Positions 28,908 to 59,144 of a stretch of DNA of 64,000 nt are shown one piece after another. Made by a program: the position numbers and the translations under genes. Position 1 is the first letter of the stretch, and each line of letters begins with the position of its first letter. The notes under the pieces were generated by a model. That model had not been told where the DNA came from. It did no database searches and saw only the letters and a list, made by a program, of their open reading frames with translations. The DNA comes from an uncultured Gammaproteobacteria bacterium (lineage in GTDB: Bacteria > Patescibacteriota > Microgenomatia > Levybacterales > UBA12049). The DNA lies in the NCBI GenBank assembly GCA_964474445.1, contig CAYYSJ010000002.1, positions 183,774 to 247,773 on the forward strand, given 5' to 3'.

Positions 28908-29069
28908 TTTAACAATCTAAACTTGCATTTTAGGTACCACATAGAGAAATGCTTCCGGACTACAGAAGCAGAAGTACAAAAAAACCTCAAAATGAAGGAA
29001 AAAGTACTGAAACAGAAACAGCAAAAAGTAGCAAAACCCTCAGGAAATCAGTTCAACCCCATAGTTTTA

Positions 29070-29098
29070 TTGACTTTTCTTTCTTTTTCTGATATACT
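29070..29098 (+). promoter_or_regulatory. candidate sigma70 promoter for the DEAD-box helicase gene
   Basis: TTGACT, 17-nt spacer, TATACT, about 165 nt upstream of the ATG. Confidence 0.4.
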
Positions 29099-29260
29099 AC
29101 TAATTAGCAGATTGAAGAAATACATCTGCTTAATAGTAGACAATTTTGATTAGATAATTTAAAGATAATAAGTACTACAATTTTTTATACATCCGTATCT
29201 TTCTTCTAACTCCGAATACACTTCATTTTAAGCAGGTTTATTTCTTCAACGCAAAATTAT

Positions 29261-30451
29261 ATGTTTCAACAACGATTTAATCCACATAGAAGATTTCATA
29301 ATAAGGCTCAATCAAAGTCTATTTCTAGCCGTGAACTTTTAGATGCTATTGCGTCTGTAGAAGTAATAAAGAAAGGAAAGGCTTTAGGAGTGGAAGATGA
29401 AGTAGCAGTAATGCATGCTTCTTTTGAAGCATTTCATCTTTCTCCTCTTTTAATACGAAACATTGTAGGAAAAGGATATACTGTACCAACCCCAATTCAG
29501 GATAGAGCAATTCCAGCTATTTTAAAAGGACAGGATGTAATTGGTATTGCAAATACCGGTACAGGGAAAACAGCGGCATTTCTTATTCCTTTAGTAAATA
29601 GGGTTATTCATAATCCTTCAGAAAAGGTATTAGTTATTACTCCAACACGAGAGTTGGGAGTACAAATTCAGGAAGAACTAAAGGGTTTTTCTCAGGATCT
29701 TAATATACGTTCTCTTCTTTTAATAGGTGGTATGAGTATGCACAGACAAAAAGGAGAATTTAAGCAAAACCCTCAATTTGTTATCGGTACGCCGGGAAGA
29801 ATAAAGGATTTACTCAAGGAAAAAAGTTTTTCATTATCTTCTTTTTCTATGGTTGTATTAGATGAAGCAGATAGGATGGTCGATATTGGATTTATTGCTG
29901 ACATTAAGTATTTTATTTCCCTTTTGCCTCATGATCGTCAATCACTTTTTTTCTCAGCTACAATAGATGGAAAAGTAAAAGAGATTCTCAATAGTTTTGT
30001 TCATAATCCTGTCTTTATCTCAGTCAAACAACAAGATACAGCAGAAAATATAGAACAGGCTGTAATGGAAGTTCCTGTCGGACATAGAAAGATTGATACT
30101 CTCCATAAGCTTTTAGCACAAGAAGCATTTACAAAAGTCCTTATTTTTGGTCGCACTAAATGGGGTGTGCAAAAGCTTACAGCACAATTAGCAGAGCGTG
30201 GATTTAGAGCGGCTGCTATTCATGGGAACAAAAATCAAAACCAACGACAACGTGCTTTGCAGCAGTTTAAAAGAGGAGAAATTCAAGTACTGTTAGCAAC
30301 AGATGTCGCATCCCGAGGGTTAGATATTCAGGATGTGTCCCATGTCATTAATTATGACATGCCTGCAACAATGGAAGATTATATCCATAGAATTGGACGG
30401 ACTGGACGAGCAGATAAAAAAGGGAAAGCGGTAACATTTATTGAAAAATAA
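29261..30451 (+). CDS. DEAD-box ATP-dependent RNA helicase
   Basis: 396 aa with Q-motif PTPIQ, Walker A ANTGTGKT, DEAD box VLDEADRM, SAT, HRIGRTGR. Confidence 0.85.
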   Translation: MFQQRFNPHRRFHNKAQSKSISSRELLDAIASVEVIKKGKALGVEDEVAVMHASFEAFHLSPLLIRNIVGKGYTVPTPIQDRAIPAILKGQDVIGIANTGTGKTAAFLIPLVNRVIHNPSEKVLVITPTRELGVQIQEELKGFSQDLNIRSLLLIGGMSMHRQKGEFKQNPQFVIGTPGRIKDLLKEKSFSLSSFSMVVLDEADRMVDIGFIADIKYFISLLPHDRQSLFFSATIDGKVKEILNSFVHNPVFISVKQQDTAENIEQAVMEVPVGHRKIDTLHKLLAQEAFTKVLIFGRTKWGVQKLTAQLAERGFRAAAIHGNKNQNQRQRALQQFKRGEIQVLLATDVASRGLDIQDVSHVINYDMPATMEDYIHRIGRTGRADKKGKAVTFIEK

Positions 30452-30454
30452 AAG

Positions 30455-30922
30455 TTATTGAAAGGTATGTTCACCGTTAGCTTTTCTTTCTGCTGCTTCA
30501 ATGACTCGTTGTCCAACAACAATGTCGTGCTTTGTTTGTTCTGTTGCCTGAATTTTTAGCACTTCCTTAAAAGAAAACCATCTAAACGTATAATTGTTTT
30601 TAGGAAGAAATTCTTGAAAAGTTTCAGTGGTTGCATATAACAATGAGTGGCTATTTTTTGTTGTCTCATTGAGGTAAAAGTATATAGGATAAATGGTATC
30701 AATTTGAATACCTAAAAGCTTGAGTATACTATCCTTAAATATTACTTCTGGTTGTTCATGTTCTGTATATTCTTTTTCAAATAATACCCAAGGAGAAGTT
30801 GTAGGTTGGGGTCGTTGCAAGAGAATTTGTTGGGAAGGCAGATGGTATATAAATCCACTTGCATAAAATATTTTATGCATTATATAAAGTTTACCATAAA
30901 TTGAAAGACAATGCTGGTACAA
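30455..30922 (-). CDS. hypothetical protein, possibly degenerate Nudix-fold
   Basis: 155 aa. The segment EHEQPEVIFKDSILKLLGIQ aligns loosely to the Nudix box GxxxxxExxxxxxxREUxEExGU, but with the catalytic REx2EE replaced. Confidence 0.25.
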   Translation of the reverse strand: MYQHCLSIYGKLYIMHKIFYASGFIYHLPSQQILLQRPQPTTSPWVLFEKEYTEHEQPEVIFKDSILKLLGIQIDTIYPIYFYLNETTKNSHSLLYATTETFQEFLPKNNYTFRWFSFKEVLKIQATEQTKHDIVVGQRVIEAAERKANGEHTFQ

Positions 30923-31032
30923 AAACCCAAAAAGACGAGAGTTATCTAATTGTATGTGTAGCCCTTTGAGAGTGTACTCTTACATAACTCTTTCTTGATT
31001 TTATATACGCAAACTGTCATTGTAGACGCAAG

Positions 31033-31212
31033 ATGGTTGAAGATAAAACATGTCCTAAATGTAAAGGATCTATGAAAGAAGGAAGCTATACAGGAGTCAC
31101 TGTAGATTGGGAGAATAATAAAGAACCTGCTTTTTTAAAACAATCAGGGCGTAGAATAATTACGTATGCTTGTGAAATGTGTGGATATATGGAAAGTTAT
31201 GTTAAAAAATAA
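31033..31212 (+). CDS. small zinc-ribbon protein (59 aa), below the ORF-track length cutoff
   Basis: MVEDKTCPKCKGSMKEGSYTGVTVDWENNKEPAFLKQSGRRIITYACEMCGYMESYVKK. Two CxxC pairs (CPKC ... CEMC) with about 37-aa spacing. Divergent from the 30455..30922 gene. Confidence 0.4.
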   Translation: MVEDKTCPKCKGSMKEGSYTGVTVDWENNKEPAFLKQSGRRIITYACEMCGYMESYVKK

Positions 31213-31260
31213 GAAAGCTAATAGACTATAGATTTTCACTTTGACTAATCTCTTTTTATA

Positions 31261-31380
31261 CTGTCTCTTTTGTCTTATTTAGCCTTGAACTGAGACAGGT
31301 GTTATGACGACGAAAGGGTGCTAGATCGGTACCCCTAGCAAGCTTGTGCACCCTTCGTTGACCGTAGTCTCTATTTAGCT
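31261..31380. repeat. conserved non-coding hairpin element, copy A (upstream of TMTC-like gene)
   Basis: Shares ordered blocks ctgtctc / tttgtct / atttagc / tatgacga / cggtacccc with 37751..37830 at identical spacing (42 nt and 25 nt), about three-quarters identity ungapped by eye. Internal pairing CTGTCTC...GAGACAG and GACGACGAAAGGGTGC...GCACCCTTCGTTGACC. A terminal direct echo gtctctatttagct. Confidence 0.5.
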
Positions 31381-31687
31381 TAATTTTGCTTTCTAAACCC
31401 TCTATTTTTACAAAAAGTCTCGGACCGACTTGAAGCTAATTTTTATCCTCAATTTTTATTGAAATTTGCTCTGAATAACGAGGCTAGGGTTATGGGTTTT
31501 TATAGCCGTTAAACCTCTGATTCAAACCATGTGTGCTGATGGATTCTTTGCAGAATTAATTGGTACAAAGAATGAAAAAGTAATCAGGGAATATGTCCAT
31601 TAGTTTACCTATACGTCGTACAATTCAAGTAAGGCGGACTGAAAAATTCTTATTGAAAATCACCAACATTGAAGCTACCATTGGTAT

Positions 31688-33421
31688 ATGCAAGAACACG
31701 ATTTTTCTTTCAAAAACCCCTTTGTCCCCCTCACCAAAAATAAAGCTATTAGAATAATTGTTTCTATTGGATTAATTATCTTTTTCAATAGTCTTTTTAA
31801 TGGGTTTGTTTGGGATGACGGATCTTATATAATTTTTAATCCCGATTTTCAATCGTTCAATTTACTTCATCTGCTTAGCAAAAATATCTTTAATAGTTCT
31901 GGACAGTACAGACCAATCCCTGCGATTTACTTTGGAACACTTTTTATACTTTTTCATCAGAATCCCTTTTTTTATCATATCATGCAACTCTCAATTCATA
32001 TTGCGAATTCAGTATTAGTTTTTTTACTTTGTAAACATTTTTTCCCAAAAAAACTGTCTCTCTTTTTAAGCACGTTATTTCTTATCCACCCAATTCAAAT
32101 TGAGTCGGTATCATTTATTGCTTCATCAGACAATACGCTTTTTGTCTTCTTCGGTTTGCTTGCCAGTTTATTAAGTCTTACCAGATATATTACCCTCAAG
32201 AGATTTACTATAATTTCATTATTACTATTTGCATCGCTTCTCACAAAAGAGACTGGGATTCTTTTTTTCTTTCCAATTCTCTTCTATCGTTTTGTGGTTA
32301 AAAAAGACGTTAGGAAGTTTTTATTTTCAGGGTTGTGCATTCTTCTGTTATATGGAATGTTACGGTTCTACATAGGAAATGTACAATCTCCAACAATAAC
32401 ATATATCCCAATTGCAACAGTACCCTTTCTTACTCGTCTTATAAATATTCCGGTAATTCTTTTTTATTACATTAAAACTTTATTTTTCCCCTTATGGTTA
32501 TCAATTGATCAGCAGTGGGTTATTCGATCAATATCCTTTTCATCTTTTTACTTTCCACTTTTTATCGATTTCTTATTTTTTTCAACCCTTTGTATCTTTG
32601 GAATGATTCTTCATAAAAAGGGAAAGCAGTATTTTACAACATTCTTATTTTTCTTTATCTGGTTTATTATTGGCATTGGGGCTCATTTGCAAATCATACC
32701 CTTGGATATGACAGTTGCTGATAGATGGTTTTATTTTCCTTTTATTGGATTTATTGGAATCTTGGGGGTTGGGATAGAATACGTTAGTAAACAAAACGTA
32801 CAAGTTAAAAAATCAATCATTGCTATTGGAGTAAGTATTCTTCTCATTTTATCGTTAAGAACGATCATAAGAAATGCTAACTGGTTTGATAATAGGACGT
32901 TGTACTCACATGATACGCTAATTAACGACAATCATGAGCTCGAATTAAATTTGGCAAACGTGTATGTAAATGAACAAAATTATCCAGAAGCGCTAACGCA
33001 CGTTAAAAAATCAATTGAAATATTTCCAACAGAATTTAACTATAGCAATTTGGGCGGAATCTACGAAAAAATGGGTGATACAAAGAATGCAGAATCATCA
33101 TATCGAAAAGCTTTAACATTCAATAAGTATCCACCAGCAGGACATCGGCTAATCTTGTCATGGATTGATACAGGATTAGCATGGACATTACTTCTTAAAA
33201 AGGACTATAAAGATGCAAACAGGTTTATACAAGAAGCTTTACGAGATTTTCCGACATCAGGATTACTGTGGAGTGATCTTGCAATTAGTGAATATGAGTT
33301 AGGGAATAAAATGGAAGCGGTGTCATTCGTTAGAAAAGCAGTAAAATTTTCAAATGATCCTCAAATTGTTCTTATTTACAATAAGATCCTAACAGATCAA
33401 CCTTTTCAATTAAATCCTTGA
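31688..33421 (+). CDS. TMTC-like GT-C protein O-mannosyltransferase homolog (DUF1736/PMT-like membrane domain) with C-terminal TPR repeats
   Basis: 577 aa, about 11 TM helices. GFVWDDGSY (the DD motif of the TMTC/PMT GT-C catalytic loop) near the N-terminus. C-terminal ~150 aa contains TPR-like repeats (ANVYVNEQNYPEALTHVKKSIEIFP...GGIYEKMGDTKNAESSYRKAL). Confidence 0.65.
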   Translation: MQEHDFSFKNPFVPLTKNKAIRIIVSIGLIIFFNSLFNGFVWDDGSYIIFNPDFQSFNLLHLLSKNIFNSSGQYRPIPAIYFGTLFILFHQNPFFYHIMQLSIHIANSVLVFLLCKHFFPKKLSLFLSTLFLIHPIQIESVSFIASSDNTLFVFFGLLASLLSLTRYITLKRFTIISLLLFASLLTKETGILFFFPILFYRFVVKKDVRKFLFSGLCILLLYGMLRFYIGNVQSPTITYIPIATVPFLTRLINIPVILFYYIKTLFFPLWLSIDQQWVIRSISFSSFYFPLFIDFLFFSTLCIFGMILHKKGKQYFTTFLFFFIWFIIGIGAHLQIIPLDMTVADRWFYFPFIGFIGILGVGIEYVSKQNVQVKKSIIAIGVSILLILSLRTIIRNANWFDNRTLYSHDTLINDNHELELNLANVYVNEQNYPEALTHVKKSIEIFPTEFNYSNLGGIYEKMGDTKNAESSYRKALTFNKYPPAGHRLILSWIDTGLAWTLLLKKDYKDANRFIQEALRDFPTSGLLWSDLAISEYELGNKMEAVSFVRKAVKFSNDPQIVLIYNKILTDQPFQLNP

Positions 33422-33502
33422 ATTGTTAGAATTTGCTATATTGACATTAAATAAAACGTTACACTATAACTATAAACAATACCTGTTTAAATAAGAACTA
33501 TA

Positions 33503-36500
33503 ATGAAAGCAAAAATTGCTGGTATAGTTTTCTTCTTACTGATTATATTTTCAGGTTTAATTGCTCCAAAAATTGTCCTAGCTACAACATTTAATCTTTC
33601 AGGAAAAATTTCAGATTCTTCAGGAAATGGGATACCAAATGCAATAATCGCTGTCATTGATACGACAACCAATAATAGTGTTGCTAATACAACAAGTGAT
33701 GCATCAGGAAATTACACAGTAAGCGTTAATGGTGGTACGTATAATATTCAAGTAAACCCACCAGCAAACAGTAATTTTATATCCGCTATTGCGCCAAGTC
33801 GTTCAATTTCATCAGATACGATTGTTAATTTTATTCTTACACCCTCAGGAGTAGTTACTCTTAGCGGTCATATCTTAGGTCCTTTAGGAAATCCATTACC
33901 AAATCAAGTAGTGGGTATGGGTTTTAGTGGACATCCCATTTCTACAACAACAGATGCAAACGGCTATTATGCACTACAAACCACACCAGGTACACAATTT
34001 CTTGACTTTTATTCTCAATCTGCAAATGATCTATCCTTAAGTGTTCCTCAAAATTATCTTATTGAATCTACGAGTGCATCATATTCTATTACTCAGAATA
34101 CTGTTTTAGACGTAACCATCCCTGCTAAAAAAATAACGGTTCATGTGCAGGATGCGTCTAATAACCCAGTTAGCAATATAACCATAGGCGCTAGCCAAAT
34201 TAATACTAATAGTACAAACTTAACCATTCCAGGTGTATCTACTGCAATGCAAGGTGGTTCCTCATATAACTCTTCTAGTGGCCCAAAAACAGACACTTCG
34301 GGCAATGCAACACTATGGTTAATACCTGGAAACTATAATCTTTTTGCAACCCCTCCCAGCGGCAGTAATTTCTCTTTAACACAAGTGCCCAACATGTCCA
34401 TTACTGGGGATACCCAACAAACAATAACTCTAATACAATCAGTTACTCTCAGTGGACACATACATGACCCATTAGGCAATCCATTACCAGATCAAACTAT
34501 ACAGGTGGGTTTTAGTGGGAATACAATCACTAAGACTACCGATGCGAATGGATTTTATTCAATTCAAACTACGCCCGGAACTCAATTCCTTGAGTTTTTT
34601 GCAACTAATCCGTTGTCATTAAATGCACCTCAGCACTATCTCCTTGATAGCGGAGGACCAGTTTATTCCATAACCCAGAATACTGTTCTAGATGTTACCA
34701 TCCCTGCTAAAAAAGTAACAGTACATGTGCAAGATTTTGCAAACAACCCTGTTAGCAATGTGATAATAAATGCCAATCAACTTGGTAATACAAATATAAA
34801 CCTACCGGGTGTTCCGAACGTCATGATAGGTTCTTCTTCTTATGGGAGTTATGGAACTGGTCCAGCAACTGACTCATCAGGGAACGTTACTTTATGGTTG
34901 ATAGCTGGAAACTATACTTTTACTGCAAAGCCTTCTAGTGGAAGTAATTTTTCGCAAACTCAACTTACTAACATATCCATTACTGGGGATACCCAACAAA
35001 CAATAACTTTGATACAGCCAGTTACCCTTAGCGGACATATTTATGGTCCACTAGGAAACCCGTTGCCAAATCAAACTGTTGGAATGGGGTTTAGTGGACA
35101 TCCAATTACTGCAACTACCGATGTGAATGGATATTACTCGCTACAAACAACACCTGGAAACAATTTCCTTAATTTTTATCCAGTAACCACAAATAGTTTT
35201 TCATTAAACGCACCCCAGTACTATCTTATCCAAACACAAGCTGCATCATATTCTATTACTCAGAATACTGTTTTAGACGTAACCATCCCTGCTAAAAAAA
35301 TAACGGTTCATGTGCAAGATGCATCAAATAATCCTGTTAGCAATGTAGTTATAGGTACTAGTGAAAATGGTAACACAGGTGTAAATCTTCCTGGTCTCCC
35401 TTCTGGATTATTAACAGCTTCTTCCTCTTACGGAAATCGTGGACTTGGTCCCGCAACAGATGCTTCTGGAAATGTTACTTTATGGTTAATACCTGGAAAC
35501 TATAATCTTTTTGCAACCCCTCCCAGCGGGAGTATCTATGCACAGTTTATATTATATAATATATCAATAACCAATGATCAAACAGAAATAATTTCTCTTC
35601 AGTTTGTCCATGCTGCACCAGTTACAACAGCTATTTTAACAACCCGTTTATCTGATGAAACATACTCAGATCCAACAACTGTAAGTTTGTCAGCTGTTGC
35701 TTCATCTGGATTTACAGTGACCAATACCTATTACACAGTAGATGGAGGAGCAAAACAAATATATACCACACCATTTACAGTATCAGGAAGTGGTTCTCAT
35801 ATGATTACCTATTGGTCTATTGATAGCTTAGGTGTTTCTGAGACTCCAAACACGAAATCTTTTTCAATTGATGACCCACCAAAAATTTCCTCAATTCCCG
35901 GTGCAACAATAAATGAAGGAAGCACATATACAGCGACAGGATCATTCACTGATACAGATTCATCGTCCTGGACAGGAACAGTTGACTACGGAGATGGTCA
36001 AGGGACACAACCATTAACAATAAATCCTGATAAAACATTTACTCTTTCTCATCAATATCTTGACAATAAACCTAATAATGCTCCATATACGGTAACAGTC
36101 AATATTACCGATAACCAGGGAGCAGGAAGTACTGTGACAACGTCAGTTGTTGTTCTTAACGTAACGCCGTCTGTTGGCTCCATCACTGTCCAATCAAATC
36201 CTGTTATCCAAGGAAGTCCCTTCTCTGTTAATTCCGTAATATTTTCTGATCCGGGAGTACTGGATACCCATACAGCGATATGGAATTGGGGAGATGGAAC
36301 AACAAGTCCAGGAACTGTTGTTGAAACAAATGGTTCAGGATATGTTTCAGCAACAGATCATGTATACTCTGCTGTTGGCACATACCAAATAACACTAACT
36401 GTTACTGATAACGACGGAGCACCAGGTACATCAGTATTTCAATACGCAGTTGTCTATCAACCATCAAGAAGTGGTCTTTTCTCAGGACATAGTATATTTG

Positions 36501-36895
36501 CTTCTCCCAACGGAGCAGATTTGCAAAATCCAAATGTAACTGGGAATGTGCACTTTGCAGTTGATATCAAGTATGCAAACAATAGTAATGTACCAACAGG
36601 TAAAGTTTCTATGGATTTTTCAAGTGGAAAGATTAGCTTAATAGCAACTTCATTTAGGTATCTGGTGATAAATGGCACACAAGCTATCCTGACAGGATCA
36701 GGAACTGTTAATGGAACCTCGGGATATAGCTTCCTTGTATCTGGAATTGATGGTACACAAACAGGAACAGGATACATAAGATTCCAGATTATAGATCCAG
36801 CAGGTAATGTTATCTATGATACACAAACTGGAGCAGCAGTGAATGCAGCACCTACTACAGCAGTGACGGGTGGCATGATTGTTGTGCATAATTAA
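33503..36895 (+). CDS. large secreted cell-surface protein with carboxypeptidase-regulatory-like (Cna-B-type) domains, three ~195-aa tandem repeats and PKD domains
   Basis: 1130 aa with signal peptide MKAKIAGIVFFLLIIFSGLIAPKIVLA. Repeated TLSGHI(L/H/Y)GPLGNPLP(N/D)Q...TDANGYY units, then PKD motifs (VDYGDGQGT...; WNWGDGTTSPG...TVTDNDG). S/T/N-rich throughout. Confidence 0.7.
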   Translation: MKAKIAGIVFFLLIIFSGLIAPKIVLATTFNLSGKISDSSGNGIPNAIIAVIDTTTNNSVANTTSDASGNYTVSVNGGTYNIQVNPPANSNFISAIAPSRSISSDTIVNFILTPSGVVTLSGHILGPLGNPLPNQVVGMGFSGHPISTTTDANGYYALQTTPGTQFLDFYSQSANDLSLSVPQNYLIESTSASYSITQNTVLDVTIPAKKITVHVQDASNNPVSNITIGASQINTNSTNLTIPGVSTAMQGGSSYNSSSGPKTDTSGNATLWLIPGNYNLFATPPSGSNFSLTQVPNMSITGDTQQTITLIQSVTLSGHIHDPLGNPLPDQTIQVGFSGNTITKTTDANGFYSIQTTPGTQFLEFFATNPLSLNAPQHYLLDSGGPVYSITQNTVLDVTIPAKKVTVHVQDFANNPVSNVIINANQLGNTNINLPGVPNVMIGSSSYGSYGTGPATDSSGNVTLWLIAGNYTFTAKPSSGSNFSQTQLTNISITGDTQQTITLIQPVTLSGHIYGPLGNPLPNQTVGMGFSGHPITATTDVNGYYSLQTTPGNNFLNFYPVTTNSFSLNAPQYYLIQTQAASYSITQNTVLDVTIPAKKITVHVQDASNNPVSNVVIGTSENGNTGVNLPGLPSGLLTASSSYGNRGLGPATDASGNVTLWLIPGNYNLFATPPSGSIYAQFILYNISITNDQTEIISLQFVHAAPVTTAILTTRLSDETYSDPTTVSLSAVASSGFTVTNTYYTVDGGAKQIYTTPFTVSGSGSHMITYWSIDSLGVSETPNTKSFSIDDPPKISSIPGATINEGSTYTATGSFTDTDSSSWTGTVDYGDGQGTQPLTINPDKTFTLSHQYLDNKPNNAPYTVTVNITDNQGAGSTVTTSVVVLNVTPSVGSITVQSNPVIQGSPFSVNSVIFSDPGVLDTHTAIWNWGDGTTSPGTVVETNGSGYVSATDHVYSAVGTYQITLTVTDNDGAPGTSVFQYAVVYQPSRSGLFSGHSIFASPNGADLQNPNVTGNVHFAVDIKYANNSNVPTGKVSMDFSSGKISLIATSFRYLVINGTQAILTGSGTVNGTSGYSFLVSGIDGTQTGTGYIRFQIIDPAGNVIYDTQTGAAVNAAPTTAVTGGMIVVHN
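33854..35600 (+). repeat. three tandem intragenic repeats (~580-590 bp each) within the surface-protein gene
   Basis: Units start near 33854, 34442 and 35021. Units 1 and 3 share 78-nt (34073-34150 vs 35242-35319) and 49-nt (34315-34363 vs 35480-35528) identical DNA stretches. Unit 2 is more diverged. Confidence 0.75.
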
Positions 36896-36915
36896 GACAG
36901 GAGAGGTCTATATAA

Positions 36916-37701
36916 ATGATGCAAAGATTAAAAAATAACAAACACGTAAAAACATATATCAAGGCAATTACGCCTCCTTATTCAAAACATGATATTCCCC
37001 ATATCTTAGGAACACTTGTAGCCGTTATTATTTTGTTTGTTCTTTCCAATATTACTCTCAAGCATATCTTTGCATCAAATACGAGTATGACTCCTCCAAC
37101 AAAACCTCAGATACTCGTGGGTACTGAGCACCCACTCCGTATCCCCTTTACTCATGCTGAACAAGGGACAGTATCTATATATTGGCTCTCATCAACTGAT
37201 CCAATAGGCGTTTCAGGATATAAGATATATAGAAATGGGAGTAAAATAGGAGAAACAAATGATACATCTTTTAAAGATAATGGAATTTCAGGAAGTGTCA
37301 CTTATGCAATTGAGGCCTATGATTCTGCGGGAAATACTTCTTCATCATCACTTCACATTAATCTTCCAAAAGCCTGGACAGCAAATGTTTCCCCAAACGA
37401 TTCTGTTATCTCAGGCTTTGTTTTAAACAAAACCAACAATGATCCAATAGCAAATACAACTATCACTACTGCAGAAGGCAAAACAATTCATACTGACCAA
37501 AATGGCTATTTCTATTACATCTCTCTAAATAACAATATTCAGTCGGTACAACTAACATTTAATGCCAAAAGTTACACTAGTGATACAGAAAATATCCAAC
37601 TCAAAAGTGGACAAAGTGTTAATCAAACAATTTACTTGACTCCACAACCAAATGTAGGAAACATGATTATTGATACTCTACTTAAGATTTTTCGCAAGTA
37701 A
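36916..37701 (+). CDS. membrane-anchored protein with fibronectin type III-like and carboxypeptidase-regulatory-like domains
   Basis: 261 aa, N-terminal TM (ILGTLVAVIILFVLSNITL). Fn3-like GVSGYKIYRNGSKIGETNDTSF and Cna-B-like TDQNGYFYY. Confidence 0.5.
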   Translation: MMQRLKNNKHVKTYIKAITPPYSKHDIPHILGTLVAVIILFVLSNITLKHIFASNTSMTPPTKPQILVGTEHPLRIPFTHAEQGTVSIYWLSSTDPIGVSGYKIYRNGSKIGETNDTSFKDNGISGSVTYAIEAYDSAGNTSSSSLHINLPKAWTANVSPNDSVISGFVLNKTNNDPIANTTITTAEGKTIHTDQNGYFYYISLNNNIQSVQLTFNAKSYTSDTENIQLKSGQSVNQTIYLTPQPNVGNMIIDTLLKIFRK

Positions 37702-37750
37702 ATTTAACCGCTTACAAATTATTAGATTGCTTAAAGTAAATGCCTTTTCA

Positions 37751-37830
37751 CTGTCTCATTTGTCTCATTTAGCTTCAGATTGAGTCAGAAGCTATGACGA
37801 TAGAATGGGTCTGGACCGGTACCCCCAGAG
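37751..37830. repeat. conserved non-coding element, copy B (upstream of histidine kinase gene)
   Basis: See copy A. Same block order and spacing. Contains ctgtctc...gagtcag (one mismatch to the copy-A stem) and the shared ccggtaccccc core. Confidence 0.5.
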
Positions 37831-38059
37831 CTTTAATATTTCGAACCCTAACTTTTGATTCTGGTATGTGGTAACCTATTGGACTAGGGCTTCAAGAAGT
37901 GCCATTCTCCCAATTAACGAATAGTTCTATCTATTGGTTGATTAACTGTTCACAACTCTCATTATTCTAATTCAATTCTGATAGTATCCTCATGATTGGG
38001 GAATATAATGCACGAACGAGATATGTAATCTCCTTACATTTCTATATTTTTGAGTTAAT

Positions 38060-39844
38060 ATGGAGAACCAAGAGAGCTTACTTCAGGCTATTAAACGTCT
38101 AGGCAGGCATGATCATATTTGTCTGATTTATGAAAATCAGAGAGATCAATTTGCAAAAGTAATTCCTTATATTAAGATAGGATTTAAAAGAAGTGAAAGA
38201 TGCAAATATATCATTGATGAAAATACGAAAAGCCAGGTTGCGGAGGGGATGCAAAAAGATGGCATCGATCTTACTAAAGCTCTAGAGAATAAATCACTTA
38301 TTTTTGCAACTAAAAACGAGACCTATCTTAAAGGAGGAAAATTTGATCCAGATGCGTTTATAGATCTTTTGGCTAAAGATGCAATAGATGCTAAGAGAGA
38401 TGGTTTTAAATCATTGAGAGTAGCAGGGGAGATGACATGGACTTTAGGAGATGAACCAGGGAATGACAGATTATTAGAATATGAGGCAAAACTCAACTAT
38501 TTTCTCCCGAAATATGATATTTCTCTAATATGCCAATACTATAAAGATAAGTTTCCTCCTACTCTTATAAAAGATATTATTTATACGCATCCGATTGTTG
38601 CATACAATGGTTGGGTCTATAAAAATTTTTATTATATTCCTCCTCAAAACTTTCTTGATAAAAATACAGACGAAGCAAAGGTTAGACATATTTTAAATAA
38701 TATTCAGACTACTGAAGAAGCAATAGAACAACAATTTCAGGCTCTTAAACGATTTGAGATTATATTTATGCAGCTTCCTTCGGCAGTGGTTGTGGCCGAA
38801 GCTTCGACTGGGAGATTAATTATTGCTAATAAAAGGATGGATGAGATATGGAAACAACCTTTTATCAAATTAGCCAACATTAGCGAGTACCGTTTATACA
38901 CAGGGTTCCACAACGATGGCCGGAAATATAAAGTTGATGAGTGGCCGTTAGCCAGAAGTTTACTCAAAGGCGAGACAGTAAATAATGAAGAAATTAAAAT
39001 TTTGCGAGGAGACAAGACATATGGATGTATCAGTGTTAGTTCTGCGCCCATTCGAGATAACGATGGTAATATTTTTGCAGCTGTCACGACGTTTACAGAT
39101 ATAACAGAAAAAAAAGAACAAGAAAGACAAAAAGATGAATTCATAGGAGTTGTATCGCATGAATTAAAAACACCTGTTACTTCTCTAAAGGCTTTTACTC
39201 AGGTTTTACAGAATAGATTTGCTAAAGAACAAAATATGGATGCTGCTTTATACTTTGAGAAGATGGATACTCAAATTAACAAACTTATCGTTTTAATTGG
39301 AGACCTTTTGGACGTAACGAAAATTGAAGCAGGAAAAATAAAATTAAATAATCAACAATTCGATATGGATAGTTTGGTTAGGGAAATTGTAGAAGAGGTT
39401 CAATTAACTACCAAACATAGAATAATAATTAGAGGGAAAACGGGAAAACAGGTCTTTGGGGACAGAGAAAGGATAGGTCAGGTTTTAATAAACCTTCTGA
39501 GTAACGCTATTAAATATTCTCCTTCTGCACTGAAGATTATTGTCAAATTAAGCTTGTCAAATAGTAGTATCACTTGTAGTGTTCAAGATTTTGGGAATGG
39601 TATTGATAAAAAAAATCAAGAGAAATTATTTGAGCGTTTTTATAGAGTTTCAGGCGATAAGGAGTTGACATATCCAGGCTTGGGTTTAGGGCTTTATATT
39701 TCAAAAGAGATTATTTTGAGGCAGGGTGGTAAAATATGGGTGAAGAGTAAAAAAGGCAAAGGTTCAATTTTTTCATTTTCTGTACCCTTTTTAAAAAAAA
39801 CTATAGAAATTCATCAACCCAGCAAGAGTTTAATGGATAACTAA
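38060..39844 (+). CDS. cytoplasmic sensor histidine kinase, MEDS-like N-terminal domain + PAS + HisKA + HATPase_c
   Basis: 594 aa, no TM helices. N-terminus GRHDHICLIYENQRDQF fits the MEDS sensory-domain signature. H-box VVSHELKTPVTSL, N box LINLLSNAIKYS, G boxes DFGNGI and GLGLGLYISKEII. No response regulator gene within the window. Confidence 0.75.
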   Translation: MENQESLLQAIKRLGRHDHICLIYENQRDQFAKVIPYIKIGFKRSERCKYIIDENTKSQVAEGMQKDGIDLTKALENKSLIFATKNETYLKGGKFDPDAFIDLLAKDAIDAKRDGFKSLRVAGEMTWTLGDEPGNDRLLEYEAKLNYFLPKYDISLICQYYKDKFPPTLIKDIIYTHPIVAYNGWVYKNFYYIPPQNFLDKNTDEAKVRHILNNIQTTEEAIEQQFQALKRFEIIFMQLPSAVVVAEASTGRLIIANKRMDEIWKQPFIKLANISEYRLYTGFHNDGRKYKVDEWPLARSLLKGETVNNEEIKILRGDKTYGCISVSSAPIRDNDGNIFAAVTTFTDITEKKEQERQKDEFIGVVSHELKTPVTSLKAFTQVLQNRFAKEQNMDAALYFEKMDTQINKLIVLIGDLLDVTKIEAGKIKLNNQQFDMDSLVREIVEEVQLTTKHRIIIRGKTGKQVFGDRERIGQVLINLLSNAIKYSPSALKIIVKLSLSNSSITCSVQDFGNGIDKKNQEKLFERFYRVSGDKELTYPGLGLGLYISKEIILRQGGKIWVKSKKGKGSIFSFSVPFLKKTIEIHQPSKSLMDN

Positions 39845-39921
39845 AGTTTGGTTTCCAATTTTTTTAACGAAGTGCCTACTTGATAAACATCTTGAAAAAT
39901 GCCACTATCCTAATTAAACCT

Positions 39922-40539
39922 ATGATCTCCTTTGTTTACTTTGATGTGGGTGGTGTTGTCCTAAAAGATTTTAGTGCAAGCAATAAATGGGACCTACTAA
40001 GGAAAGACTTAGGAATTAGTGACGACAACAAAGCCGCATTTGCCAATTTGTGGAGGAGATATGAAAGAGAAATTTGTACAACTAAGAACGTTGAATCAAT
40101 GATTCCTCTTCTTGAAGAGGAATGTTATGCGGCAATATCAAACAGCCATTCTCTTTTAGAAAACTTTATAAAGTATTTTGAAAAGAATGAATCGATGTGG
40201 CGTACCATTGGTGAAGTAAAGGCGCATTGTAGAATAGGTCTCTTAACGAATATGTATGTGGGAATGTTTGATGAAATTTCCAAAGCTAATATACTACCAC
40301 CTGTTTCATGGGATGTTATTATTGACTCGTCTGTTGTAAAGGCTGCAAAACCTGATAAAAAGATTTTTGAAATAGCTCAAGAGAAAGCTCAGGTTTCTGC
40401 GAATACAATCCTTTTTGTTGAAAACACTATGAAAAATATTGAGGTGGCGCATGAGTTGGGTTGGCAAACGTTTTTTTATGACTCTTCAGATTATAGAGGC
40501 TCAAGTCAAAAACTTCACGAGTATTTTCTTAGAGACTAA
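39922..40539 (+). CDS. HAD-superfamily hydrolase (subfamily IA-like, DxGG motif-I variant)
   Basis: Motif I FVYFDVGGVV (nucleophile Asp; Gly at +2 as in L-2-haloacid dehalogenases). Motif II GLLTN, motif III SSVVKAAKPD, degenerate motif IV FVENTMKN. Start chosen at the internal ATG so motif I is N-terminal. Confidence 0.5.
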   Translation: MISFVYFDVGGVVLKDFSASNKWDLLRKDLGISDDNKAAFANLWRRYEREICTTKNVESMIPLLEEECYAAISNSHSLLENFIKYFEKNESMWRTIGEVKAHCRIGLLTNMYVGMFDEISKANILPPVSWDVIIDSSVVKAAKPDKKIFEIAQEKAQVSANTILFVENTMKNIEVAHELGWQTFFYDSSDYRGSSQKLHEYFLRD

Positions 40540-40542
40540 ATA

Positions 40543-41244
40543 CTAATGAGAATCTTTTCGTGCTTTTGCAATAAGTGAAACACCCATAAATGGTTTTATA
40601 ACAGATTCAATCGCACGAAGCAACGGAACAATTTTATCAAATACGACAATTTGATATTTGCTTAAATGATTTCCTTGTTCTATGCGATTTCTAATTGTCC
40701 AACTAATGAGCCCAACGAAATTAAATGAATAGAGTCCTTCGATAACAAATCCTGCCTTTACTAATTTTTCTTTTAATTCATCTTTTTCATACCTTCGATA
40801 GTGTCCAAGCCTTTTATCTAGTTTTGTATATGCGAATCTTTTTGATGGGACGAGTAAAAGAAGATTTCCCTGTGGCTTCAGTAATTGATATATATGACGT
40901 AATGCTTGTTCGTCATTTTTGATATGTTCTAAGACATTAATTCCAATAATTGTTTTAAAATAATTATGAAACTTTTTAGGACTTTCTTTTTCTATATCTA
41001 AATGAATAATATGCTTCTCTTTTGTGGGAAATGTCTCTTGAAGATGGTTAATAAGACCGGTATCAATATCTGATAGATACACATGCTGTCTGGAAACGAA
41101 AAACCTACTAATATTGCCTGTTCCTGAACCAATTTCTAGAAGAGGAGATTTGAGGTGTGGAAGGAATTGGTCGATAATCCATTTATTGTAATTTTGAGCG
41201 TCTTCTAATACTTCTAATGTCGTTAAACCTTTGTATTTTACCAT
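40543..41244 (-). CDS. class I SAM-dependent methyltransferase
   Basis: 233 aa with motif I LEIGSGTGNISRF, motif post-I YLSDID, and motif II/III spacing typical of Methyltransf_11/23 families. Confidence 0.7.
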   Translation of the reverse strand: MVKYKGLTTLEVLEDAQNYNKWIIDQFLPHLKSPLLEIGSGTGNISRFFVSRQHVYLSDIDTGLINHLQETFPTKEKHIIHLDIEKESPKKFHNYFKTIIGINVLEHIKNDEQALRHIYQLLKPQGNLLLLVPSKRFAYTKLDKRLGHYRRYEKDELKEKLVKAGFVIEGLYSFNFVGLISWTIRNRIEQGNHLSKYQIVVFDKIVPLLRAIESVIKPFMGVSLIAKARKDSH

Positions 41245-41295
41245 ACAAATATATACTATATACTAATACTAGCAACCTTACAAGAAATTGAAATA

Positions 41296-42804
41296 ATGAA
41301 GAGAGTTCTTCTCATAACAACATTTATCCTTATAGTTTTATTAACACTTTTCCCACGGTGTATTGAGTTGTTAGCAAATAATTATCTTTTTGGTTTTGAC
41401 CAAGGGAGAGAAATGTTAGCAGCCAAAGGAATAGTAGTCGATCATAAATTTATTCTTATTGGTACTGAGCTCGGTGCTGGTAGCGCAGGCATATCAGGCC
41501 TTTTCCATGGGCCTATCTATTATTACTTGCTTACCGTTCCTTTTCTCCTTTTTAAAGGGGATCCCTATGGTGCTGTAGTACTGATGTTTGTTTTGAGTGT
41601 GGCGACAGTTATCTTTTCTTTCTTCCTTGGTAAAAAACTATTTTCTCTTAAAGGAGGACTACTATTGTCTTTTCTTGTTGCTGTATCACCTCCACTTATT
41701 GCTCAAGCAAGATTTATATGGAGTCCTAACCCTCCGTCTTTTTTTATTTTACTTGCTTTCTACTTTTTGTATCTTTTTATAGTAAAACAAAAATACTACT
41801 ATCTTTTATTTGCTGCGTTTTTTTCAGCATTTGTATATAATTTTGAATTTGCTCTTGCTGTACCGATGTGTTTGACGGTGTTTGTTTTTGCAATTAGCTT
41901 TCTAAAAAATAAAGTCAAATTATTAAGTGGAATTATTTCAGGATTTTTACTTGGATTTCTTCCTATGTTATTTTTTGAAATAAGGCATCATTTCCTTGGT
42001 TTGCATGGAGTGATCACCTACATATTCCACCATAAAGCTTCATCGTCTCATATAAAAGATAGCTCTCTTACGCTTCTTTCTGGTCATTGGCAAACTTTCT
42101 TAGGCAATATCAGTGATGCTTTCCCTGGCCACGGAATATTGCCTGGATGGTTACTTGGTTTGGTGTTGCTTATAGGAACAGTTTTCTTCTTGAGAAAAGA
42201 GAAAAACGATTATCTTAAAAAGTTCATTTTTTATCTATTGTTGTTATTTCCTGTAAATTTTTTTGTTTTTTCATTTTTAAGAAACACTGTATACAACTAC
42301 TATTTAACTGACCTCACATTTGTTTACCTCATTCTTTTAACATATATTATTTGGTCTGCGTTTTATCAAAAGAAAATCGTTTTTCAAATCCTAGGAGGTG
42401 GATATATCATTGTTCTACTCTTTATGGCATCTTTTAGCTCTGTGTCTACTTCTTTTCATGATTATCCAGATTTTGGAGGTACTGCAAAAATAAAAGGATT
42501 AGAACAAGCAATGGATTACATCTATACTGATACGAAGGATAGGCATTTTGGTCTTTTAATATTCGCGCCTCCAGTCTATACCTATCAATATGATTATATG
42601 GTTTGGTGGTATGGTCAGCGTAAATATCAATACAAACCATATACAGATAAAAAAGGAATTGTATATCTTCTTATAGAGCCTGATCCATATAAGCCCTGGT
42701 CATATAATGGTTGGCTAGAAACAGTTATCAAAACAGGTACTGTTATGATAACAACAACACTTCCAAGTGGTTTTATTGTACAAACAAGGGATTTCAATCA
42801 ATAA
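41296..42804 (+). CDS. polytopic membrane protein, GT-C-type glycosyltransferase-like (ArnT/PMT GT39/83-like)
   Basis: 502 aa, about 12 TM helices. An N-terminal periplasmic-loop acidic motif (FGFDQGRE) is in the position of the GT-C DE/DD motif. A C-terminal soluble domain follows the TM bundle. Confidence 0.45.
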   Translation: MKRVLLITTFILIVLLTLFPRCIELLANNYLFGFDQGREMLAAKGIVVDHKFILIGTELGAGSAGISGLFHGPIYYYLLTVPFLLFKGDPYGAVVLMFVLSVATVIFSFFLGKKLFSLKGGLLLSFLVAVSPPLIAQARFIWSPNPPSFFILLAFYFLYLFIVKQKYYYLLFAAFFSAFVYNFEFALAVPMCLTVFVFAISFLKNKVKLLSGIISGFLLGFLPMLFFEIRHHFLGLHGVITYIFHHKASSSHIKDSSLTLLSGHWQTFLGNISDAFPGHGILPGWLLGLVLLIGTVFFLRKEKNDYLKKFIFYLLLLFPVNFFVFSFLRNTVYNYYLTDLTFVYLILLTYIIWSAFYQKKIVFQILGGGYIIVLLFMASFSSVSTSFHDYPDFGGTAKIKGLEQAMDYIYTDTKDRHFGLLIFAPPVYTYQYDYMVWWYGQRKYQYKPYTDKKGIVYLLIEPDPYKPWSYNGWLETVIKTGTVMITTTLPSGFIVQTRDFNQ

Positions 42805-58730: not shown

Positions 58731-59072
58731 TTATTCTTCTTGCTGCTTATCGATATATTTTTCTTCTACTTTCTTTAATTTATCGTTGATTGCTCTTTCT
58801 ATATCAACTCCTGCTGTCATTGCAAGTTGCATTGTTGTAATGATAACATCAGCAAATTCCACGTACATATTACGTTTATCAAATTTTGCCAATTTCGCTT
58901 TTCTTTGTAATTTCAGAATTGCCAGAATATCATTACATAACTCTCCGACTTCTTCATTCAGTTTCACTGTACGAGACAGAATTTCCTGCTCTTGAGGAGT
59001 TTTAATCCGGTAAGAAATGGGGGAATGTTCTGCAATTTTTTTCAATCTTTCTTCTACTTGTTTAAAATCCAT
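58731..59072 (-). CDS. MazG-like nucleotide pyrophosphohydrolase (small all-alpha NTP-PPase)
   Basis: 113 aa with EEVGELCNDIL and EFADVIITTMQLAMTAGVDIERAINDKLKK, characteristic of MazG-like/YpjD proteins. Confidence 0.65.
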   Translation of the reverse strand: MDFKQVEERLKKIAEHSPISYRIKTPQEQEILSRTVKLNEEVGELCNDILAILKLQRKAKLAKFDKRNMYVEFADVIITTMQLAMTAGVDIERAINDKLKKVEEKYIDKQQEE

Positions 59073-59144
59073 ACATTTTATTTTACCACATATTATTTTA
59101 CCACATCGGGTTGGAGAAATACTGAAAGTTGTGTATACTATAAA

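What the first reader, a model, noticed from the sequence alone, without database searches (positions are those of the whole stretch)
31033..42804. Candidate cell-surface protein glycosylation / adhesin cassette with its own orphan sensor kinase
Contiguous, mostly co-oriented genes: Zn-ribbon mini-protein; TMTC-like GT-C O-mannosyltransferase homolog with TPR repeats (FVWDD motif); 1130-aa S/T/N-rich secreted protein with Cna-B-like repeats and PKD domains; Fn3 membrane protein; cytoplasmic MEDS-PAS histidine kinase with no response regulator nearby; HAD-like hydrolase; SAM methyltransferase; and a second polytopic GT-C-like glycosyltransferase. The pairing of two GT-C enzymes with a large Ser/Thr-rich extracytoplasmic substrate candidate suggests a dedicated O-glycosylation system for a surface or S-layer-like protein. 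The conserved leader elements add a possible common regulatory layer. This is the only clearly accessory block in the window.
Basis: partly seen in the sequence, partly recalled or inferred. Interest (0 to 1): 0.6.

Follow-up and report, generated by a model that had tools for sequence, protein, structure and literature searches.

The report
Sugar-transferase and surface-protein gene pair
In this candidate-phyla-radiation bacterium a membrane sugar-transferase resembling the animal TMTC enzymes sits directly upstream of a large secreted serine/threonine-rich protein, a pairing that recurs in related genomes and probably marks enzyme and substrate, whereas the rest of the proposed eight-gene cassette is an ordinary chance neighbourhood.

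Summary

The block is not one cassette. In the closest relative found, with about 85% identity in housekeeping proteins, SecA is followed at once by HAD, methyltransferase, GT-C2 and MutL. The 11 kb that carry the helicase, Zn-ribbon, GT-C1, the 1130-aa protein, the anchored protein and the kinase are missing there.

Only GT-C1 followed by a beta-sandwich surface protein is a recurrent unit. In 77 related loci, relatives of the 1130-aa protein lie immediately downstream of a GT-C1-family gene in 15 of 95 cases, against 6 of 591 other genes (p = 1e-9).

GT-C1 has TMTC-like architecture: 11 predicted membrane helices, a C-terminal TPR domain, and DD, YRP, KET and DRxxY motifs. It misses Pfam's TMTC signature.

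The kinase is an orphan with no shown link to the pair. GT-C2 relatives lie in glycopolymer clusters.

The "leader" is a widespread unannotated intergenic repeat, not specific to this block. Verdict: a plausible but unproven enzyme–substrate pair, of moderate interest.

The parts
31033..31212 (+). 59-aa Zn-ribbon mini-protein. No evidence that it belongs to the functional unit.
   Evidence: The ORF and the CxxC...CxxC motif are present. Pfam hits are sub-threshold. It is absent from the related locus L082, and the only match among the loci (L001) is the same sequence re-found.
31246..31340 (+). Copy 1 of a conserved intergenic repeat element. In this copy a conserved 3' extension runs to about 31470.
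   Evidence: nhmmer E = 2e-20. Alignment with copy 2. Extension shared with 12 other loci. No Rfam match.
31688..33421 (+). GT-C1: a TMTC-like GT-C glycosyltransferase with 11 predicted membrane helices and a C-terminal TPR domain of about 170 residues. Proposed protein O-glycosyltransferase.
   Evidence: The DD43-44, YRP74-76, KET187-189 and DRWFY345-349 motifs were compared with Table 4 of PMC7801869.
33503..36895 (+). 1130-aa secreted, Cys-free, Ser/Thr/Asn-rich multi-beta-sandwich protein. It has three repeats of about 194 aa with CarboxypepD_reg domains, an OmpL47-type domain, two PKD domains and a conserved C-terminal domain. Proposed acceptor substrate.
   Evidence: Relatives lie immediately downstream of GT-C1-family genes.
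36916..37701 (+). 261-aa membrane-anchored protein with Fn3-like and CarboxypepD_reg domains. It lies 20 nt after the 1130-aa gene and is probably co-transcribed. Possible second substrate or anchor. It is not conserved next to relatives of the pair.
   Evidence: No tblastn match in the 77 related loci.
37739..37828 (+). Copy 2 of the intergenic repeat element, in the same orientation as copy 1. The two copies bracket the three-gene module.
   Evidence: nhmmer E = 2.4e-19..
38060..39844 (+). Cytoplasmic MEDS-PAS-HisKA-HATPase histidine kinase, an orphan in this window. Not shown to belong to the unit.
39880..40539 (+). HAD-IA type hydrolase. The likely true start is the ATG at 39922. It is part of a separate conserved trio.
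   Evidence: 67% identical and syntenic in L079, directly after SecA.
40543..41244 (-). Class I SAM methyltransferase, part of the separate conserved trio.
   Evidence: 72% identical and syntenic in L079.
41296..42804 (+). GT-C2: a PMT_2/ArnT-like GT-C without TPR, carrying a small C-terminal alpha/beta domain. Probably acts in envelope glycopolymer assembly. Part of the separate trio.

Best explanation
The 11.8-kb block is a composite of three unrelated pieces.

(1) The functional core is a probable operon: GT-C1, the 1130-aa protein and the 261-aa protein, 31688-37701. GT-C1 is a polyprenyl-phosphate-sugar-dependent GT-C enzyme of TMTC-like build. Its catalytic loops and its TPR domain face the outside of the membrane. 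After Sec export of the downstream-encoded beta-sandwich protein, and perhaps of the anchored 261-aa protein, the TPR domain binds it. The GT-C domain then transfers a monosaccharide, possibly mannose, from the lipid carrier to Ser/Thr hydroxyls. The result is a glycosylated surface or adhesin-type protein.

(2) The MEDS-PAS kinase is an independently inherited orphan sensor.

(3) HAD, methyltransferase and GT-C2 form a conserved trio that belongs with its SecA and MutL neighbours. It most likely serves envelope glycopolymer synthesis.

Shown: the folds, motifs and domain content; the composite synteny; and the recurrent gene pair. Inferred: the topology, the lipid-linked donor, the identity of the sugar, and the enzyme–substrate relation.
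For: - Motifs: D43, D44, E188, R346 and Y349 are invariant, and Y74, R75 and K187 nearly invariant, in 26 family members. They correspond to TMTC motifs M1, M2, M4 and M7 (PMC7801869).
- Family: 16 of 26 members match PMT_2.
- Operon: the gaps between the three genes are 81 and 20 nt, with no terminator-like site in them.
- Gene pair: relatives of the 1130-aa protein are the immediate same-strand downstream neighbour of 15 of 95 GT-C1-family genes, against 6 of the 591 other genes in the same loci (Fisher p = 1.3e-9). These come from at least 11 assemblies with otherwise unrelated neighbours. Two further cases are L086 and L188.
- Downstream proteins: of the eight scanned, seven are beta-rich repeat proteins (CarboxypepD_reg, SdrD_B, Big_1, SpaA, PKD, Kelch, PD40) and one has no Pfam hit.
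- Composite nature: in L079 the order is SecA, HAD, methyltransferase, GT-C2, MutL, with housekeeping identities of 85-88%. GT-C2 relatives lie in PMT_2 arrays with GT2, epimerase and MptA_B genes.
- Kinase: its relatives lie in other contexts.
- Precedents: the GT39 gene of C. bescii lies close to its substrate gene celA (PMC6151902). TMTC and TMEM260 enzymes act on cadherins and on plexin, cMET and RON receptors (PMC11292533 and PMC10214176).
Against: - No biochemical evidence exists. No glycosylation site motif is known.
- GT-C1 itself does not reach Pfam thresholds for PMT_2 or TMTC_DUF1736.
- Only about 16% of GT-C1-family genes have such a downstream neighbour. Those that do are not a clade (nearest-neighbour test p = 0.33). 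The pairing is therefore a family tendency, not a strict rule.
- The closest GT-C1 ortholog found (61%, L082) is followed by a TMEM260-like GT-C and not by a surface protein within the held sequence.
- No polyprenyl-phosphate-sugar synthase (GT2) was found among the ten other window ORFs scanned.
- TPR domains also occur in polysaccharide export and assembly proteins. This last point is from general knowledge.
Confidence: 0.5

Rival explanations
1. All eight genes form one dedicated O-glycosylation/adhesin cassette. Two GT-Cs, a HAD phosphatase and a methyltransferase build and transfer a modified glycan onto the 1130-aa protein, under control of the cassette's own MEDS-PAS kinase and shared leader elements.
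For: The genes are contiguous and mostly co-oriented. Both polytopic proteins are GT-C enzymes. The same repeat element lies upstream of both GT-C1 and the kinase. In other Levybacteria a methyltransferase also precedes PMT_2 genes.
Against: In the closest relative, HAD, methyltransferase and GT-C2 lie between SecA and MutL without the other five genes. None of the 77 GT-C1 loci carries a MEDS kinase. Only one carries a HAD relative, and only one a weak GT-C2 match. Relatives of the kinase lie in unrelated contexts. The repeat element precedes very diverse genes elsewhere, such as GreA, GpsA, GNAT, radical SAM and GIY-YIG.
Confidence: 0.08
2. GT-C1 does not glycosylate a protein. It adds sugar to, or polymerises, a lipid-linked or wall-linked glycopolymer, as ArnT, Emb/Aft or MptA-type GT-Cs do. 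Its TPR domain scaffolds an envelope complex. Adjacency to surface proteins reflects shared envelope function, for example a glycan that anchors or coats those proteins.
Against: The motif set (DD, YRP, KET, DRxxY) and the GT-C plus C-terminal TPR architecture match the protein O-mannosyltransferases TMTC1-4. The position-specific, same-strand pairing with secreted beta-sandwich proteins (p = 1e-9) is what an enzyme–substrate pair predicts. A TMEM260-like protein O-mannosyltransferase homolog is adjacent in L082.
Confidence: 0.25
3. The three-gene module is a mobile or exchangeable cassette delimited by the two co-oriented repeat elements. Its presence here reflects cassette insertion rather than selection for linkage with anything else in the block.
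For: The two co-oriented copies bracket exactly GT-C1 through the 261-aa gene. In other contigs the element forms co-oriented arrays: 28 of 28 adjacent pairs lie on the same strand, typically 0.3-2.8 kb apart, with mostly co-oriented genes between them. In L187, L086 and L188 the element abuts a GT-C1-family or surface-protein operon. The region is absent from the syntenic site of L079.
Against: No integrase or transposase was recognised by BLAST homology or the Pfam scans of 19 window ORFs; the remaining ORFs and the element-bearing loci were not scanned. The region missing in L079 is larger (28908-39921) than the interval bracketed by the repeats. The two copies are only about 70% identical. 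Genes downstream of the element include housekeeping ones, which fits a promoter or leader better. Composition is not atypical.
Confidence: 0.12
4. Pure chance neighbourhood: none of the genes in the block are functionally linked.
For: Gene order in these small genomes decays quickly. Most neighbours of GT-C1 relatives differ from locus to locus.
Against: The position-specific enrichment of relatives of the 1130-aa protein directly downstream of GT-C1-family genes (15 of 95 against 6 of 591) recurs in many assemblies with otherwise different contexts.
Confidence: 0.05

Closest known systems
Eukaryotic TMTC1-4 protein O-mannosyltransferases (GT-C/PMT clan)
   Same: An N-terminal GT-C domain with 11 predicted membrane helices is followed by a C-terminal TPR domain on the non-cytoplasmic side. 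There is a DD motif in the first outer loop, then YRP, KE(T) and (E/D)RxxY motifs. Their known substrates, the cadherins, are built of beta-sandwich modules, as are the proteins encoded next to GT-C1.
   Different: Pfam's TMTC_DUF1736 signature is only sub-threshold (E = 0.04). Motifs M3 (RxD) and M6 (PxxP) are not evident, and M2 lacks the His-Lys. The TPR region is short, about 10 helices. The organism is bacterial, so the donor would be a bacterial polyprenyl phosphate sugar of unknown identity. No activity has been shown.
PMT family, GT39 (yeast Pmt1/2/4; Mycobacterium and Streptomyces Pmt)
   Different: No MIR domain was detected by Pfam. GT-C1 carries TPR instead, and GT-C2 has a small C-terminal alpha/beta domain.
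Caldicellulosiruptor bescii Cbes_1864 (GT39), encoded near its substrate gene celA (PMC6151902)
   Same: A bacterial GT-C encoded close to, and co-oriented with, the gene of the secreted multi-domain protein it glycosylates.
   Different: That enzyme has no reported TPR domain. By my recollection its targets are Ser/Thr-rich linkers. In the 1130-aa protein Ser/Thr are spread through the folded modules.
ArnT (GT83) and mycobacterial MptA/Aft/Emb-type GT-Cs
   Different: The acceptor is unknown. In this window GT-C2 is solitary, with only a HAD hydrolase and a methyltransferase beside it.
TMEM260 (DUF2723) protein O-mannosyltransferases
   Same: In L082 the gene directly after the GT-C1 ortholog matches PF11028 TMEM260-like (E = 1.3e-14). 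TMTC-like and TMEM260-like enzymes can therefore be neighbours in these bacteria.
   Different: No TMEM260-like gene was detected among the block's proteins (Pfam).

Membership tests
GT-C glycosyltransferase superfamily (GT-C1) | Polytopic membrane fold shared with PMT, ALG, ArnT and STT3 enzymes | tested here: met
GT-C glycosyltransferase superfamily (GT-C1) | Acidic catalytic motif (DD/DxD/ExD) in the first extracytoplasmic loop | tested here: met
   FVWDD: D43 and D44 are invariant in 26 family members.
GT-C glycosyltransferase superfamily (GT-C2) | GT-C fold | tested here: met
Pfam PMT_2 (PF13231) | Score at or above the gathering threshold of 26.1 bits | tested here: inconclusive
   GT-C2 scores 25.2 bits, just below. 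GT-C1 has no hit. Relatives of both pass: P0037 with 29.7 bits and P0009 with 27.0 bits, 16 of 26 GT-C1-family members match at E up to 0.1, and most GT-C2 relatives are precomputed as PF13231.
TMTC family | Pfam TMTC_DUF1736 loop signature between TM7 and TM8 | tested here: not met
   E = 0.04, 14.3 bits against a cut-off of 27. The hit is at residues 241-283, in the expected loop. The family is not among the 25 most often matched in the alignment.
TMTC family | GT-C domain with 11 membrane helices followed by luminal or extracytoplasmic TPR repeats | tested here: met
   There are 11 long helices before residue 398, then 10 TPR-type helices. TPR Pfam hits. Sidedness is inferred, not tested.
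TMTC family | Motifs M1-M7 of PMC7801869 (DD, SHKSYRP, RxD, KE(T/Q)xxT, DW, PxxP, ERxxY) | tested here: inconclusive
   By inspection: M1 DD is present. M2 is partial (GQYRP). M4 is partial (KETGIL). M7 is present as DRWFY. M5 is doubtful (DQQW). M3 and M6 are not evident. No direct alignment with TMTC sequences could be made, because the afdb50 library was unavailable.
TMTC family | Protein O-mannosyltransferase activity | not testable with these tools
   Needs biochemistry or glycoproteomics.
Two-component system | Histidine kinase with a cognate response regulator | tested here: not met
   HisKA and HATPase_c are present. No receiver domain was detected in the 64 kb. The 59%-identical homolog in L084 does have a stand-alone receiver downstream.
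Dedicated glycosylation gene cluster | Co-conservation of the component genes across genomes | tested here: not met
   Only GT-C1 followed by a surface protein is co-conserved. HAD, methyltransferase and GT-C2 are conserved separately. The kinase is conserved with neither.
Rfam RNA families (for the leader element) | Match to any curated covariance model | tested here: not met
   There is no hit at gathering thresholds in the window. Only chance-level hits appear at E up to 10 in either intergenic region.

The most novel reading that the evidence does not exclude
Bacteria of the Microgenomates group use large paralogous families of TMTC-like, and also TMEM260-like, GT-C enzymes to O-glycosylate specific folded beta-sandwich modules of their surface proteins. 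Each enzyme would be encoded next to its client. This would make them prokaryotic counterparts, and possibly ancestors, of the animal domain-specific O-mannosylation pathways for cadherins and plexins. In addition, the enzyme–client modules may be shuffled as cassettes bounded by a previously undescribed repeat element of about 100 nt.
Probability: 0.2. Interest if true: 0.7.

Novelty: new member of a known kind. Interest (0 to 1): 0.42.

Why it matters
Candidate-phyla-radiation bacteria are thought to live attached to host cells. Their surface proteins are the likely tools of that attachment, yet nothing is known about how these proteins are modified.

A recurrent genomic pairing of a TMTC-like transferase with beta-sandwich surface proteins gives a concrete, testable enzyme–substrate hypothesis. 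It also offers a bacterial model for the poorly understood TMTC and TMEM260 class of O-mannosyltransferases, whose human members are disease genes.

Showing that the eight-gene 'cassette' is composite matters too. It prevents over-interpretation of the kinase, HAD, methyltransferase and second GT-C as parts of one system.

Tried and rejected
- Sequence and profile searches of the PDB with GT-C1 were swamped by TPR proteins. The N-terminal 400 residues alone found nothing.
- The afdb50 library was not available, so no direct structural comparison with TMTC models was possible.
- phmmer of the 1130-aa protein against the PDB found nothing.
- The exact-protein look-up found only a 4.5-kb duplicate contig of the source genome.
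- A polyprenyl-phosphate-sugar synthase was looked for among ten other window ORFs and not found.
- I tested whether GT-C1 relatives that have a surface-protein neighbour form a clade. They do not.
- Leader element as a structured RNA:
  - Single-sequence folds were unremarkable (z = -2.1 and -0.7).
  - RNAalifold on 104 copies gave no structure on the gappy alignment and only one 7-8-bp hairpin on core columns.
  - Mutual-information analysis showed no clear Watson-Crick covariation. The 5' half was fixed by the search pattern, so this test is weak.
- Sigma-70 promoter and terminator scans were at background level.
- Readings of the element as a Pho-box-like direct repeat, a LexA box, a sigma-54 promoter, a tRNA-like T-arm or an integron attC site were considered by eye. 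Spacing or consensus did not fit any of them.
- Literature searches for the element's sequence, and for CPR GT-C or surface glycosylation, returned nothing relevant.
Full report
**Observation**

The window is AT-rich (about 36% GC). It carries housekeeping genes typical of a small bacterial genome. Relatives of its proteins come from MAGs labelled Levybacteria, Microgenomates or Patescibacteria.

Pfam and NCBIfam confirm most domain calls:
- TPR repeats at the C-terminus of the 577-aa protein, here called GT-C1.
- Four CarboxypepD_reg stretches, two PKD domains and an OmpL47-type domain in the 1130-aa protein.
- CarboxypepD_reg plus an Fn3-like segment in the 261-aa protein.
- MEDS, PAS, HisKA and HATPase_c in the kinase.
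- A HAD hydrolase and a class I SAM methyltransferase.
- A near-threshold PMT_2 hit (25.2 bits against 26.1) in the 502-aa protein, here called GT-C2.

The 1130-aa protein has 25% Ser+Thr, 8.7% Asn, no cysteine and very few charged residues. Its N-terminus looks like a signal peptide. It contains three tandem repeats of about 194 aa (DNA period 579-588 nt).

**Are the two polytopic proteins glycosyltransferases?**

GT-C1 itself misses every Pfam glycosyltransferase threshold. The only hit is TMTC_DUF1736 at E = 0.04, although it falls in the expected loop. Three lines of evidence nevertheless place it in the GT-C superfamily.
- It belongs to a large family of proteins about 580 aa long (727 scored hits). 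Of 26 members, 16 match PMT_2, and several are named 'protein O-mannosyl-transferase' by their source.
- The residues invariant in the family (D43, D44, E188, R346, Y349) or nearly invariant (Y74, R75, K187) correspond to motifs described for human TMTC1-4: DD, (SHKS)YRP, KE(T/Q)xxT and ERxxY (PMC7801869).

The build is therefore TMTC-like. Membership in the TMTC family proper is not established. The DUF1736 signature is sub-threshold, and motifs M3 and M6 are not evident.

**Is the block one unit?**

No. The closest relative I could find is L079 (GCA_964598355.1). Its aminoacyl-tRNA synthetases and SecA are 85-88% identical to those of the window. There the gene order is SerRS, SecA, HAD, methyltransferase (opposite strand), GT-C2, MutL, with 6 nt between SecA and HAD.

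In the window, 11 kb (28908-39921) lie between SecA and HAD. They carry a small ORF, a DEAD-box helicase, a 155-aa ORF, the Zn-ribbon gene, GT-C1, the 1130-aa gene, the 261-aa gene and the kinase.

In three other Levybacteria-type contigs the relatives of GT-C2 (53-55% identity) sit in arrays of five to eight PMT_2 paralogs. GT2 glycosyltransferases, sugar epimerases, PTPS_related proteins and MptA_B-family proteins lie alongside. This points to envelope glycopolymer assembly rather than to modification of the 1130-aa protein.

The kinase has only three full-length relatives.
- One (59% identity, L084) is followed by a stand-alone receiver and surrounded by unrelated metabolic genes.
- One (41%, L085) lies a few genes from MutL and MutS, without any GT-C.
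- The third (61%, P0242) lies on a 2.5-kb contig whose context I did not examine.

No receiver domain was detected in the 64-kb window. The kinase is an orphan here, but nothing ties it to the glycosylation genes.

**What is conserved?**

I fetched 77 loci from species-representative genomes that encode a GT-C1 relative.

The family is strongly paralogous. There are 108 members in these loci, often in tandem, and at least five in single MAGs.

Relatives of the 1130-aa protein occur in 20 of the 78 loci scanned, one of which is a duplicate contig of the source genome. In the gene-level count they are the immediate same-strand downstream neighbour of a GT-C1-family gene in 15 of 95 cases. They account for only 6 of the other 591 genes of at least 150 aa (Fisher p = 1.3e-9). 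The 15 cases come from at least 11 assemblies, and all other neighbours differ between them. Two metagenome contigs, L086 and L188, add further cases.

Different parts of the 1130-aa protein recur: the N-terminal repeats, the OmpL47-type domain, and the PKD plus C-terminal region. Pfam scans of eight such neighbours show a common theme in seven of them: proteins built of beta-rich repeat modules such as CarboxypepD_reg, SdrD_B, Big_1, SpaA, PKD, Kelch and PD40. The eighth has no Pfam hit.

The pairing is a tendency of the family, not of one clade (nearest-neighbour test p = 0.33). The nearest ortholog of GT-C1 (61%, L082) is preceded by a paralog and followed by a TMEM260-like GT-C (PF11028, E = 1.3e-14). 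The 261-aa protein and the Zn-ribbon protein have no relatives in these loci apart from the duplicate of the source genome.

**Mechanism proposed**

With 11 membrane helices and a positively charged N-terminus, the DD loop and the TPR domain should both face outward. This is an inference, and it matches the topology derived for TMTCs in PMC7801869.

I propose that GT-C1 uses a polyprenyl-phosphate sugar to O-glycosylate Ser/Thr of the protein encoded downstream after its Sec-dependent export, with the TPR domain acting as the substrate-binding module. A BacA/UppP gene at 59017-60003 shows that the organism recycles polyprenyl carriers.

Two precedents exist.
- The GT39 gene of Caldicellulosiruptor bescii lies close to the gene of its substrate CelA (PMC6151902).
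- The animal TMTC and TMEM260 enzymes act on cadherins and on plexin, cMET and RON receptors (PMC11292533 and PMC10214176). These are beta-sandwich domains, like the modules found here.

The donor sugar, the sites and the enzyme–substrate relation are all inferred. I put this at about 0.5.

The main rival (about 0.25) is that GT-C1 builds or decorates a non-protein glycopolymer, and that adjacency reflects shared envelope function.

**The 'leader' elements**

The two long intergenic regions share an element of about 95 nt (31246-31340 and 37739-37828, both on the + strand). The two copies bracket the GT-C1, 1130-aa and 261-aa module.

*Distribution.* The element is not in Rfam.

*Consensus.* It reads TTTTTATACTGTCTCATTTGTCTCATTTAGCCTCAAg-TGAGACA, then a variable insert of 0-45 nt, then GYTATARGGATAGAAAGGTTCTAGACCGnnnTGCTCAGC.

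*Position and orientation.* It is always intergenic. Its upstream neighbour has a random orientation (55 on the + strand, 53 on the - strand). Its downstream neighbour is co-oriented in 78 of 100 cases (p = 2e-8).

*Arrays.* Where a contig holds several copies, all 28 adjacent pairs lie on the same strand, usually 0.3-2.8 kb apart. The genes between them are mostly co-oriented.

*Neighbouring genes.* The downstream genes are very diverse. They include GNAT, radical SAM, GIY-YIG, TspO, alpha/beta hydrolases, GreA and GpsA. Antitoxin-like, HicA-like and NUDIX-like genes lie nearby, judged from their sequences only.

*Modules.* The 3' module of about 45 nt also occurs alone. A subset of 13 copies, including window copy 1, shares a further extension of about 130 nt.

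*Structure.* I found no convincing covariation. The 5' half was fixed by my search pattern, so this test is weak. One divergent copy shows a double compensatory change in the 7-bp stem, TGTCTTG with CAAGACA.

*Reading.* The element is therefore real and widespread, but not specific to this block. Its orientation bias fits a promoter or leader, or a transcript-boundary element. A cassette-boundary role cannot be excluded. Its function is unresolved.

**Novelty and verdict**

TPR-bearing PMT_2-type proteins are widely annotated in bacteria, but to my knowledge none has been characterised. My literature searches found nothing on them in these bacteria.

The finding is best filed as a new, predicted member of a known kind: a GT-C protein O-glycosyltransferase encoded beside its client. 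It has TMTC-like architecture and a statistically supported gene pairing.

The eight-gene cassette, the dedicated kinase and the two-enzyme model are not supported. Interest is moderate (0.42). It would be higher if domain-specific O-glycosylation of beta-sandwich modules were demonstrated.

Noticed in passing
window 31246-31340 (extension to about 31470) and 37739-37828; related copies in L086-L205 and L027: A conserved intergenic element of about 95 nt, unannotated and not in Rfam. It has more than 120 exact-core matches in metagenomes. It contains two direct TGTCTCA repeats, inverted TGAGACA arms, a variable insert and a 3' module of about 45 nt that also occurs alone. Copies form co-oriented arrays (28 of 28 adjacent pairs on the same strand). 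The downstream gene is co-oriented in 78% of cases and is functionally very diverse. It could be a leader or promoter, a small RNA, or a cassette boundary.
   Followed up: partly
L002-L078 (for example L004, L021, L023, L043 and L067 from one Levybacteria MAG; tandem pairs in L002, L008, L012, L014, L020, L028): The GT-C1 family (GT-C plus TPR, about 580 aa) is strongly expanded in Microgenomates. There are at least five paralogs per genome, often in tandem arrays, and 108 genes in the 77 loci.
   Followed up: partly
L082 3600-7467: In a close relative the GT-C1 ortholog (61%) lies in an array: a TPR-GT-C paralog, the GT-C1 ortholog, then a TMEM260-like GT-C (PF11028, E = 1.3e-14). Homologs of two of the three animal O-mannosyltransferase classes are thus adjacent in a bacterium.
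   Followed up: partly
L080, L081, L206, L207: Relatives of GT-C2 sit in co-oriented arrays of five to eight PMT_2 paralogs. GT2, GT4, a Polysacc_synt flippase, epimerases, PTPS_related and MptA_B-family genes lie alongside. These are large envelope-glycan clusters in Levybacteria-type genomes.
   Followed up: partly
window 38060-39844; L084 2357-4514: The MEDS-PAS kinase has very few full-length relatives. Beyond them, the best matches cover only the PAS-kinase part and are labelled Ktedonobacter or Chloroflexota. The 59% homolog lies on a contig with AlkZ-like, rhodanese, alcohol dehydrogenase and MFS genes and has its own receiver. This suggests acquisition by horizontal transfer and loss of the partner.
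   Followed up: partly
window 28908-39921 against L079 8619-8626: An 11-kb segment is present between SecA and HAD in the window but absent in the closest relative. Besides the surface module it includes a DEAD-box helicase that is 86% identical to the one in L082. This is a rearrangement, not a simple insertion of foreign DNA.
   Followed up: yes
window 33000-37000: GC skew turns negative (to -0.16) across the + strand 1130-aa gene, while the flanking + strand genes have positive skew. This is probably a codon and amino-acid composition effect of the Thr/Ser/Asn-rich protein.
   Followed up: no
window 59017-60003: A BacA/UppP undecaprenyl-pyrophosphate phosphatase gene (Pfam E = 1e-72). It indicates polyprenyl-phosphate carrier recycling, which lipid-linked sugar donors need.
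   Followed up: no
window 39880-39921: The HAD ORF as listed starts at a TTG. Alignment with the L079 ortholog begins at residue 15, so the ATG at 39922 is the likelier start.
   Followed up: partly
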